From: Eledone cirrhosa
Taxonomy: Eukaryota
Assembly: GCA_964016885.1 (NCBI GenBank)
Contig: OZ024752.1
Location: 28,954,001-29,018,000 of the forward strand
Direction of reading: 5' to 3'
Length of the DNA: 64,000 bases
Position 1 is the first letter of the stretch, and the number at the start of each line of letters is the position of its first letter. The notes below the pieces were generated by a model, which did not search any database, had not been told where the DNA came from, and was given only the letters and a program-made list of their open reading frames with translations. The translations under genes and the position numbers were made by a program. This document shows positions 34,390 to 36,575 of this stretch, one piece after another.

Positions 34390-34655
34390 TTCTATAAAAA
34401 ATATATATATCATACACAAAACGCCAGCATCAACAGATTTCCAAGAGATGGCAACATGAATGGACGTACTATTTTTCTCTAAAAACATTTTTTTCCAATT
34501 CCACCCCGCCCGTCCCTTCAATCTATCTAATTTCTCATTCTTTCTTCTAATGAATGACTAGCGTCCGAAACGTTAAGACCCTCTTCCTGCTATTTCTAGC
34601 GTTAACCTAATATATTCCTTCTATATACTGTACTGATTGTGTTGTTATTTCTTTT

Positions 34656-34660
<5 letters not shown>
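34390..34660 (+). mobile_element. Family A hammerhead-bearing short element, copy 2
   Basis: TCTT-CTAATGA-ATGACTAGCGTCC-GAAAC-GTT-AAGA at 34543-34578; ends in (TA)n. Confidence 0.65.
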
Positions 34661-34705
<45 letters not shown>

Positions 34706-34860
34706 CGAAGGAAGTGTGGTAGGGAACCAGGTGGACCATAACGCACCAGAGTACTCAATACTTGGGGTAGTAGAGTGGGTAATAGGAAAAACATTATTTC
34801 TGGAGTCCAGAAATAGGTCTCGAAACGGCTCGAGCTCTGCCGTCGGAGTCTTAAACCTTT

Positions 34861-34895
<35 letters not shown>

Positions 34896-35375
34896 AATAT
34901 GGACGAGGTGTCAAATTTTCATTTCATTTATTGAGGTGTGACGGACGTTTCACGATTGATCAGCTCAAGGTTCAATTTGTGTCGATCGAGCCTGACTCTG
35001 GAATCAAAAGCTCATAACCCGTCTGACCTCTGTTAACGTAATCAGAAGTTTGATGAGCTTTTAATTCCAGAGTCGGGCTCGATCAATACAGGTCGTACTT
35101 TGAGCTGATCAATCGCGAAACGCACGTCACACCTCAATAAATGTAATGAAAATTTGACACCTCGTCCATATTATTATTATCATTATTACACTCTGCTTAG
35201 TACAATACCAAAATACATACTGGAAGACTACGCATCGAGGGCTCACTTTTTAAAATGAATATCCGAAGAGGAATGGAAGGGAACCAGAATTAAGTAAAGT
35301 ACTCAATACTTTAGTAGAGAAGCTACTTATTATTTCATATAGACATGACGTCTACACCTCCAGAACTATTCCTTC

Positions 35376-35479
<104 letters not shown>

Positions 35480-35711
35480 ATATACACGGGTGTGTATGAT
35501 TGTGTATAGAAGATAATATTAATAAAAGGAATTTCAACTTTGTCTGATTTACTCGTTTTATTTACAATCGTTTAAAATTTATAATGGTATTAGAATGAAA
35601 TAGTATGGTAGAATATTAAATGTTAAGTGTTAATTGAACAAGTACTTTCATGCTTTCGCAATCTTCAGTTCATAATGTGTGGTGACAGTCAAGTTTGCAA
35701 TTTTCACATTA

Positions 35712-35750
35712 TGAACCTGAAGATTGCGAAAGCGTGAAAGTACTTGTTCA
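35712..35750 (+). ncRNA. Minimal type I hammerhead ribozyme with palindromic helix III
   Basis: TGAAC-CTGAAGA-TTGC GAAA GCGT-GAA-AGTACT-T-GTTCA. An inverted copy lies at about 35635-35672 on the minus strand. Confidence 0.7.
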
Positions 35751-35944
35751 ATTAACACTTAACATAACATTTAATATTCTACCATACTATTTCATTCTAA
35801 TACCATTATAAATTTTAAAGGATTGTAAATAAAACGAGTAAATCAGACAAAGTTGGAATTCCTTTTATTAATATTTATATATATATATATATATATATAT
35901 TAATTCAAAATATTAACAAAATAGATATTCTTGTGATCAATTAT

Positions 35945-36009
35945 ATTTTATTATACATATTTCAGAGGTACTGAGTTAAGTTCAACAGTACGTCCTCATC
36001 AGATAAAAT
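35945..36009 (-). ncRNA. Type I hammerhead ribozyme motif
   Basis: ATTTTAT-CTGATGA-GGACGTACTG...CAGTACCTCT-GAA-ATATGTAT-A-ATAAAAT; 7-bp stem I. Confidence 0.65.
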
Positions 36010-36178
36010 AAGATGATGCATGACATACCCTGACATAGTAGATGGTTAAGATTCAGTCATGGTAGTACCATGACTGAATCTTAACCATCTACTATGTCAG
36101 GGTATATCCAGGAAGCTTCAACTGTTAAGGTTGTCTTTTTTCCGGGTATGTCAATATTTATTTACAAAACAAATCTGT

Positions 36179-36240
36179 ATTTTATCTGATGAAAGCGCAC
36201 CATAATTTTCCTTGGTTGCCCTTGAAATATATAATAAAAT
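36179..36240 (+). ncRNA. Type I hammerhead ribozyme motif
   Basis: ATTTTAT-CTGATGA-AAGCGCACCA...TGGTTGCCCTT-GAA-ATATAT-A-ATAAAAT; palindromic helix III, 7-bp stem I. Confidence 0.68.
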
Positions 36241-36299
36241 AAATATGGTTTTATAAATATAGTTTCCATTTATTAATATATTATATATATATGTGTGTG

Positions 36300-36575
36300 T
36301 GTAAAATGTAAACAAAAATAACAACACAATCGGTACAGTATATGGAAGGGATATATTAGGTTAACGCTTGAATTAGCAGGAAGAGGGTCTTAACGTTTTG
36401 GACGCTAGTCCTTCATCGAAAGAAAGAATGAGAAATAAGATAGATTGAAGGAACAGGTCAGTTGGAAATTGGAAAAAATGTCTTTAGATAAAAATAACAG
36501 GTCCATTCATGTTGCCATCTCTTGGAAAACTTGATACTGGCGTTTTGTGTATGATTTCTTTTTTTTAGAAAAGTT
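36300..36575 (-). mobile_element. Family A hammerhead-bearing short element, copy 3
   Basis: Reverse complement of the 34390-34660 element; degenerate core TCGATGAAGGACTAGCGTCCAAAACGTTAAGA at about 36388-36420. Confidence 0.65.

What the first reader, a model, noticed from the sequence alone, without database searches (positions are those of the whole stretch)
35900..36290. Two divergent hammerheads pointing outward around a perfect 81-bp palindrome
Seen: minus (35945-36009) and plus (36179-36240) hammerheads share an identical 7-bp stem I and core but have different stem II sequences that each still pair. Between them is a perfect 40-bp-arm palindrome (36025-36105, 1-nt loop). Inference: structure conserved while sequence differs argues for real selection on the ribozyme fold. 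The perfect centre looks much younger than the arms, suggesting fold-back/template-switch repair or fusion of two subfamilies.
Basis: partly seen in the sequence, partly recalled or inferred. Interest (0 to 1): 0.72.

Follow-up and report, generated by a model that had tools for sequence, protein, structure and literature searches.

The report
Two-family Penelope retroelement end chimera
The two outward-facing hammerhead motifs are the ribozyme-bearing ends of two related, high-copy Penelope-like jumping genes that are joined back to back at this one spot, likely by two successive insertions into a TA repeat, so this is an ordinary transposon scar and not a selected double-ribozyme device.

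Summary
Observation confirmed: type I hammerheads at 35944-36010 (-) and 36178-36241 (+), and a perfect 40+1+40 palindrome at 36025-36105. They are not diverged arms of one element. The left arm and the palindrome belong to family A, the right arm to family B. Both are abundant Hydra-clade Penelope-like retrotransposon (PLE) families whose parent copies, carrying an RT/GIY-YIG-type ORF, were found in this genome. The locus is an inverted A end, a 40-bp A fold-back stub and a B end, joined at non-homologous positions; the junction is unique in the genome. Both arms are as young as the centre, so 'young centre, old arms' fails. Stem II covaries between subfamilies (7 of 9 pairs change on both sides), so selection on the fold is real, but it acted in the transposon lineages and not at this locus; a read-through RNA here is predicted to bury both cores. 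Head-to-head PLE ends with hammerheads are published, and this scan reported them before elsewhere in this genome. Useful by-product: arms stop at a conserved initiator-like base, often with an extra G, hinting at a capped sense RNA template. No RNA data; cleavage untested.

The parts
35876..35899 (.). (TA)n tract at the left end; inferred insertion target of family A
   Evidence: sequence; A and B copies elsewhere end in (TA)n
35896..36065 (-). Family A pLTR arm without the ~100-nt tail, running from base +2 of the inferred RNA start to the family's inner 3' end
   Evidence: 99.4% over 168 nt to the 5' pLTR of ORF-bearing copy L150; end positions as in other copies
35944..36010 (-). Type I hammerhead of family A; predicted cleavage 3' of 35952; helix III self-complementary 8-mer, predicted to need a dimer
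36025..36105 (.). Perfect 40+1+40 palindrome: the 5' end of the A arm and its fold-back stub
   Evidence: the same turning point in 89 strand matches genome-wide
36066..36105 (+). 40-bp forward stub of family A (+3 to +42 from the inferred RNA start)
   Evidence: similar stubs joined to foreign DNA in L016, L145, L187, L188, L189
36105..36106 (.). Non-homologous A/B junction with 1 shared T, or a TA remnant; unique in the genome
   Evidence: 1 match at up to 2 mismatches; 1 match for A-stub-plus-B
36106..36282 (+). Family B pLTR arm without tail, from +4 (or +3) of the inferred RNA start to the inner 3' end
   Evidence: 96% over 136 nt to the 5' pLTR of L099, which carries a 741-aa ORF
36178..36241 (+). 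Type I hammerhead of family B; predicted cleavage 3' of 36233; helix III cut to 6 nt by a deletion seen in 1 of 218 hammerhead contexts
36283..36302 (.). (TA)n/(TG)n tract at the right end
   Evidence: sequence

Best explanation
The locus is made of the hammerhead-bearing ends (pLTRs) of two related Hydra-clade Penelope-like retrotransposon families joined head to head, and it likely arose when one short insertion landed on or beside an earlier one in a shared (TA)n tract. Shown: family identity of each piece, parent copies with ORFs, a unique non-homologous junction, both arms young. Inferred mechanism: the element's GIY-YIG nuclease cuts (TA)n and the RT copies the element RNA from one of two fixed internal start sites about 100 nt apart (tailed and tail-less ends) towards the RNA 5' end, an initiator-like A about 65-85 nt upstream of the hammerhead core. 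Copying from both sides of the break gives the usual palindrome, with one tailed and one tail-less arm. Here the A cDNA likely reached the RNA start, turned back and copied about 40 nt of itself (the perfect palindrome), and was then joined to a tail-less single B arm whose own 5' end is at B's RNA start. Alternatively B arrived second and replaced the rest of A's right arm. The ribozyme fold was kept by selection in the active elements and is predicted to work as a dimer, perhaps protein-assisted; the two copies here would be passengers. I put the identity at about 0.95 and this two-step history at about 0.6.
For: Family A: 86 matches from 40 scored of 1012 candidates, covering only query bases 1-209 apart from the window itself and one weak hit; most are full A/A palindromes. 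Family B: 50 matches from 40 of 496 candidates. Parents: a B-type hammerhead lies 220-261 nt upstream of the ORF start in 17 of 30 loci found with the ORF N-terminus. L099 has a 741-aa ORF, and related ~740-aa ORFs have hammerheads on both sides. L150 is a whole but broken A element with both pLTRs and an inverted 5' piece. The AlphaFold model (pLDDT 90.6) matches telomerase RT best (Foldseek E 1.4e-9), and the Hydra motifs are present. One-tail rule: 23 of 24 B pairs (29 loci), 16 of 17 complete A pairs (20 loci), 17 of 17 complete pairs (30 loci); the window has two tail-less arms, which fits two events. 5' ends pile up within 6 nt of the initiator-like A in 17 of the 43 arms ending between -50 and +63 (59 arms examined, 16 ran further upstream; p 2e-11 against uniform). 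Single B arms with no same-family partner are common (12 of 30, 6 abutting TA), and so are A arms with a short stub joined to foreign DNA (5 other loci). Head-to-head junctions at the RNA start: A/A 89 and B/B 113 strand matches, direct A/B 0, A-stub/B only this one. In vitro, a PLE protein cuts and extends both strands and starts RT at two sites that define the tail (PMC11167929).
Against: The order of events cannot be read from one sequence. No target-site duplication can be seen in (TA)n. No RNA data exist for the start site, cap or cleavage. Pfam did not recognise the ORF, and the PDB sequence search gave only a weak retron RT hit (E 0.022). No tree with reference PLEs was built, so the clade rests on motifs. 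The A/B pattern searches needed exact motif matches and a gap of 30 nt or less, so they miss diverged chimeras. The within-family test for selection was significant for A (p 0.01) but not for B (p 1.0). Genome searches score only the best 40 candidates, which favours young copies.
Confidence: 0.65

Rival explanations
1. One insertion event used two different RNAs: an A RNA primed on one side of the break and a B RNA on the other, possibly held together through their self-complementary hammerhead helix III.
For: Both arms stop at their family's RNA start and are equally young. Helix I is identical and the A and B family helix III 8-mers pair fully with each other (duplex -3.2 kcal/mol, the same as B/B). 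L016 and L188 also join an A arm plus stub to another repeat's outward-facing end. The Anolis PLE protein is predicted to be a dimer (PMC11167929); L1 insertions made from two RNAs are reported (PMC11702581, passages).
Against: No direct A/B head-to-head junction against 89 and 113 same-family strand matches; no A partner among 30 B arms that start at +1. The window breaks the one-tail rule seen in nearly all single events. The helix III duplex is very weak.
Confidence: 0.15
2. An A palindrome and a B palindrome inserted side by side, and a later deletion removed A's tailed right arm and B's tailed left arm.
For: It explains two tail-less outer arms directly. The region is a pile of palindromic repeats in TA tracts, and long palindromes are deletion-prone (general knowledge, recalled).
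Against: One deletion end would have to fall exactly on B's centre. Stubs joined to foreign DNA cluster at 30-56 nt (5 of 6 other cases; the sixth is 94 nt), which suits short fold-back synthesis better than random deletion, although the sample is small and partly selected by the query.
Confidence: 0.13
3. One reading: one old palindromic element whose arms diverged under selection for two working ribozymes and whose centre was recently repaired.
For: The arms are distantly homologous (about 75% over 67-73 nt around the hammerhead) and both stems pair.
Against: Each arm is 96-99% identical to a different family. The junction is not at homologous positions. The whole-locus RNA is predicted to pair each core with the antisense of the other on both strands. 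The plus-strand helix III carries a private shortening. The junction is single-copy.
Confidence: 0.02
4. The junction is an assembly error between two repeats.
For: The junction is single-copy and lies in very repetitive DNA.
Against: Both joined ends fall on family-typical positions, and similar stub junctions occur at other loci.
Confidence: 0.04

Closest known systems
Hydra-clade C-terminal EN+ Penelope-like elements (Craig et al. 2021, PMC8557442; passages and section 11 read)
   Same: RW[K/R], DKT and CxCx5C motifs, no CxxC between the GIY and YIG halves, CxxC and CxH near the C terminus, canonical hammerheads, insertion in (TA)n, inverted 5'-truncated copy with a one-sided tail
   Different: The units here are about 4 kb, with 1.3-1.9 kb between stop codon and 3' hammerhead, against 'generally <3 kb'; the tail is about 100 nt against 30-40; copy number is very high (10,062 candidates for the N-terminus); this locus joins two families
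[quoted passage not shown]
   Same: Type I, long helix II, short palindromic helix III predicted to act as a dimer, pairs on opposite strands 100-700 bp apart, many families with covariation
   Different: Helix I is 8 bp; a conserved C.C mismatch at stem II position 4 (171 of 190 copies); the first stem II pair is A-U or G-U, not G-C
Adineta vaga Penelope inverted pLTRs with palindromes at the junction (Arkhipova et al. 2013, PMC3846280; passages read)
   Same: Head-to-head inverted pLTRs, 18-38-bp palindromes at the 5' end, TCACT initiator-like motif, optional tail
   Different: That paper proposes self-priming on an antisense template; the junctions here fit a capped sense template better (inferred)
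Anolis Poseidon PAc in vitro system (Frangieh et al. 2024, PMC11167929; parts 1-2 of 4 read)
   Same: Both strands cut and extended, two internal RT start sites that define the tail, uncleaved RNA as template
   Different: Different clade; start sites lie in the ORF there but in the 5' leader here, next to TA-like sequence
Animal non-LTR retrozymes (bioRxiv 10.64898/2026.07.22.740005; part 1 of 5 read)
   Same: Short non-coding hammerhead-bearing repeats related to PLE pLTRs
   Different: No head-to-tail tandem of hammerhead units here; the pieces map directly onto pLTRs of ORF-bearing elements

Membership tests
Type I hammerhead, PLE minimal/dimeric kind | Core CUGANGA, GAAA and UH with helices I and II | tested here: met
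   both motifs
Type I hammerhead, PLE minimal/dimeric kind | Covarying helix II | tested here: met
   10 sequences that I chose to span subfamilies: 7 of 9 stem II pairs change on both sides, 95.6% of cells paired; 176-185 of 190 copies paired at each of positions 1-3 and 5-7; related sequences are not independent events
Type I hammerhead, PLE minimal/dimeric kind | Short self-complementary helix III | tested here: met
   197 of 218 hammerhead contexts, with several different palindromes
Type I hammerhead, PLE minimal/dimeric kind | Self-cleavage | not testable with these tools
   no assay; no RNA run listed
EN+ Penelope-like element | Single ORF with telomerase-like RT | tested here: met
   732-742-aa ORFs with YRDD in most copies seen; best fold match TERT; Pfam blank
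EN+ Penelope-like element | C-terminal GIY-YIG endonuclease | tested here: inconclusive
   Motif pattern VY...YVG...R..H conserved (invariant Y622, Y635, G637, R646, H650); the domain was not folded or searched on its own and no profile hit was obtained
EN+ Penelope-like element | Direct pLTRs with hammerhead flanking the ORF | tested here: met
   L150 for A; L061 and L099 for B; 9 related loci visible (output cut; 20 loci examined)
EN+ Penelope-like element | Inverted 5' copy with a tail at one end only | tested here: met
   for the families; the window copy itself has no tail
EN+ Penelope-like element | Retained spliceosomal intron | tested here: inconclusive
   A donor-like motif about 40 nt after the start is conserved (16 of 41 ORF-start contexts), but a crude acceptor search found AG in only 8 of 41; no RNA
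Hydra clade | RWK motif, DKT, CxCx5C linker, no CCHH, CxxC and CxH near the C terminus | tested here: met
   read by eye from the alignment against the definition; RWR in these families, RWK in most homologs; L099 lacks the last linker cysteine through a short deletion
Hydra clade | Insertion in (TA)n and canonical hammerhead | tested here: met
Hydra clade | Phylogenetic placement with reference Hydra RTs | not tested
   no reference sequences were fetched; supplements of PMC8557442 not viewed
Neptune/Nematis clades | CCHH finger with two cysteines between GIY and YIG; CX2-5CxxC linker | tested here: not met
   my first guess was dropped
Non-LTR retrozyme | Head-to-tail tandem units each with a hammerhead | tested here: not met
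   no direct repeat of either arm in the window
MITE / TIR DNA transposon | Fixed terminal inverted repeats with symmetric ends | tested here: not met
   ends are asymmetric (one tail), centres vary from copy to copy, parent encodes an RT

The most novel reading that the evidence does not exclude
A single PLE insertion complex carried RNAs of two different families, paired through their self-complementary hammerhead helix III, and wrote one into each side of a (TA)n break. The hammerhead would then act as an RNA dimerisation signal for two-sided reverse transcription, and chimeras like this one would record mixed dimers.
Probability: 0.08. Interest if true: 0.7.

Novelty: new member of a known kind. 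Interest (0 to 1): 0.27.

Why it matters
The locus itself matters little: it is one scar among many. The family data around it bear on an open question, how PLEs make inverted insertions. Arms of both families stop at the same initiator-like A. The base before it is G more often than background where the genome has C: 9 of 23 junctions not abutting a partner arm against 16% background, p 0.008; by eye 26 of 77 listed junctions after setting aside 23 of 100 that a partner arm explains. For L1 such an extra G is read as a copy of the mRNA cap (PMC11702581). If it holds here, PLE palindromes come from two cDNAs made on a capped, unspliced, uncleaved sense RNA rather than from antisense self-priming, and same-family pairing is nearly absolute. 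These high-copy Hydra families give ready material for that test.

Tried and rejected
Rfam at gathering score: no match in the window. Pfam on ORF pieces and whole ORFs: nothing above cut-off; a scan of the whole alignment was not obtained. PDB sequence search: nothing significant for the single protein, retron RT at E 0.022 with the profile. A genome search with the A hammerhead alone returned nothing (the tool skips very common words, so this shows nothing), so the A set for 5' ends came from a query that includes the tail; one of its 30 loci is the query's own source. No RNA holder listed. Contigs of three runs from one sample did not bridge the A/B junction among the pieces shown; the tool says a hole proves nothing, so this is not used either way. 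The intron acceptor test was inconclusive. Neptune-type assignment rejected. Homologous recombination between A and B rejected: their homologous donor-like motif lies 40 nt downstream of B's junction. MITE and retrozyme readings rejected (membership table). Literature searches listed no paper, by title or abstract start, on two-family head-to-head PLE insertions or on a cap-derived G in PLEs; most listed papers were not read and subscription journals are missing, so this is not proof of absence. Supplementary files of PMC8557442 and PMC4209133 were not viewed and may already list these families or hammerheads.

Full report
Observation. The region reads as described. The arms 36025-36064 and 36066-36105 are exact reverse complements around one G, and a hammerhead scan of the whole window finds the two named motifs with the predicted cut sites, plus a third at 35712-35750. 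Helix I is 8 bp and identical in the two; stem II differs but pairs in the same pattern; helix III is a short self-complementary stretch. Motifs with a helix I of 7 bp or more occur 2 times in the window and 0.005 times on average in 200 shuffles. Rfam has no match at gathering score.

Two families, not one. The window lies in a 3.0-Gb genome; the named relatives of the element protein come from the octopod Argonauta hians. A search with 35900-36280 matched other loci only over its first 209 bases, apart from one weak hit (86 matches, 40 of 1012 candidates scored), and most of those loci are full palindromes with the left-arm sequence on both sides. I call this family A. The right arm, 36106-36285, has its own set of copies (50 matches, 40 of 496 scored), family B, which also forms fold-backs. 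A and B are distant homologs (about 75% over 67-73 nt around the hammerhead). The window joins 40 nt of forward A to the start of B at positions that are not homologous, and this junction occurs once in the genome at up to 2 mismatches.

Parents. Locus L061 shows a B end followed by a leader and an ORF start. Searching with that N-terminus gave 150 scored of 10,062 candidates; 17 of the 30 loci fetched have a B-type hammerhead 220-261 nt upstream of the start codon. L099 has a 741-aa ORF and is 96% identical to the right arm over 136 nt; related ORFs of about 740 aa have a hammerhead on each side. L150 is a whole, broken A element: inverted 5' piece, 5' pLTR 99.4% identical to the left arm, ORF remains 48-60% identical to the L104 protein, and a 3' pLTR. 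The L104 protein folded with pLDDT 90.6 and its best structural match is telomerase RT. Pfam did not recognise it. The alignment shows RW[K/R], DKT, a CxCx5C linker, no cysteine pair between the two halves of the GIY-YIG motif, and CxxC and CxH near the end, which is the published definition of the Hydra clade (PMC8557442). No tree was built.

Age. Among 87 A arms and 86 B arms, median divergence from the majority is 1.8% and 1.7%. The window's A arm differs from the majority at 1 site and its B arm at 4, all variants shared with other copies. Two of 17 A palindromes tested are 100% identical over 340 bp. A perfect 40-bp centre is therefore expected (probability 0.23-0.48), and the 'young centre, old arms' inference fails.

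Selection on the fold. Across 10 hammerheads that I chose from different subfamilies, 7 of 9 stem II pairs change on both sides and slid controls collapse. Over 190 copies, positions 1-3 and 5-7 pair in 176-185 and position 4 is a C.C mismatch in 171. Helix III is self-complementary in 197 of 218 contexts, as described for dimeric PLE hammerheads (PMC4209133). In family A, variants shared by 3 or more arms avoid the structured part (1 against 17) while singletons do not (32 against 53; p 0.01); in B the same test was not significant. So the fold was selected in active lineages and copies decay after insertion. At this locus a read-through RNA of either strand is predicted to form a long hairpin that pairs each core with the antisense of the other, and the B helix III has lost 2 nt (1 of 218 contexts).

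How the shape arises. Each family has two fixed outer ends about 100 nt apart. Same-family pairs almost always have one of each: 23 of 24, 16 of 17, 17 of 17; these sets overlap in part. This matches the published one-sided tail (PMC8557442, PMC3846280) and the two RT start sites and two-strand extension shown in vitro (PMC11167929). Inner ends pile up at one base, the A of a motif resembling an initiator that is kept in all subfamilies viewed: 17 of 43 arms ending between -50 and +63 stop within 6 nt of it. A has a TATA-like box 31 nt upstream; B has none. 220 B arms begin at this base or the one before it under a filtered exact pattern, and the base before it is G in 9 of 23 free junctions against 16% background, as a copied cap would give (precedent for L1 in PMC11702581). 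I infer that the template is a capped sense RNA and that palindrome centres mark its 5' end. This is inference; no RNA run was listed.

The chimera. Head-to-head junctions at the RNA start gave 89 strand matches for A/A and 113 for B/B, none for direct A/B, and only this locus for an A stub followed by B. Both ingredients are common separately: B arms with no same-family partner (12 of 30, 6 abutting TA) and A arms with a 30-56-nt stub joined to foreign DNA (L016, L145, L187, L188, L189). The window has two tail-less ends, which single events rarely show. The simplest history is two insertions into one TA tract. Co-insertion of two RNAs and later deletion remain possible; the A and B helix III sequences can pair with each other, which keeps the bolder reading open at low odds.

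What is known. PLE hammerheads, opposite-strand pairs 100-700 bp apart, inverted pLTRs with junction palindromes and (TA)n targeting are all published. Papers seen: PMC4209133 parts 1-2 of 4; PMC8557442 passages and section 11; PMC11167929 parts 1-2 of 4; PMC3846280, PMC13282606 and PMC11702581 passages; bioRxiv 10.64898/2026.07.22.740005 part 1 of 5; no supplements. Earlier notes of this scan describe the same head-to-head pattern elsewhere in this genome; none matched this sequence.

Verdict. Real, explained, and mostly ordinary: a one-off junction of two Hydra-clade PLE ends. New member of a known kind; interest 0.27.

Noticed in passing
window 35515-35875: A neighbouring palindrome of a third family, with a hammerhead at 35712-35750 (+) that has a different helix I, a GAAA-capped stem II and a 6-nt palindromic helix III; the left-arm copy has a 1-nt deletion next to the core. 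Found in 7 other fetched loci.
   Followed up: partly
window 34435-34684 and 36282-36531: Two 86% identical copies of another repeat face each other around the whole cluster, each ending at a TA or TG tract; probably separate insertions.
   Followed up: partly
window 34891-35177: An older palindrome (85% arm identity) between TA tracts with no match among the fetched loci and no hit in the type I hammerhead scan.
   Followed up: no
window 34702-34865: A repeat present in 35 fetched loci, beginning at a TA tract; not classified.
   Followed up: no
junction lists: A frequent A/A and B/B junction is what two cDNA ends, each with one extra C, would give by pairing over three bases with a central T.T mismatch; read by eye, untested.
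   Followed up: partly
L150:1623-1631 and L061:4695-4703 region: A splice-donor-like motif about 40 nt after the inferred start is kept in A, B and related subfamilies; if it is used, the hammerhead and both RT start sites might lie in a 5' intron.
   Followed up: partly
L102, L118, L096, L105: Other hammerhead families with different palindromic helix III sequences, some in arrays spaced about 310 or 480 bp apart.
   Followed up: no
L099-L118: Many uninterrupted ~740-aa Hydra-type ORFs with asparagine-rich stretches, suggesting recent activity of these families.
   Followed up: partly
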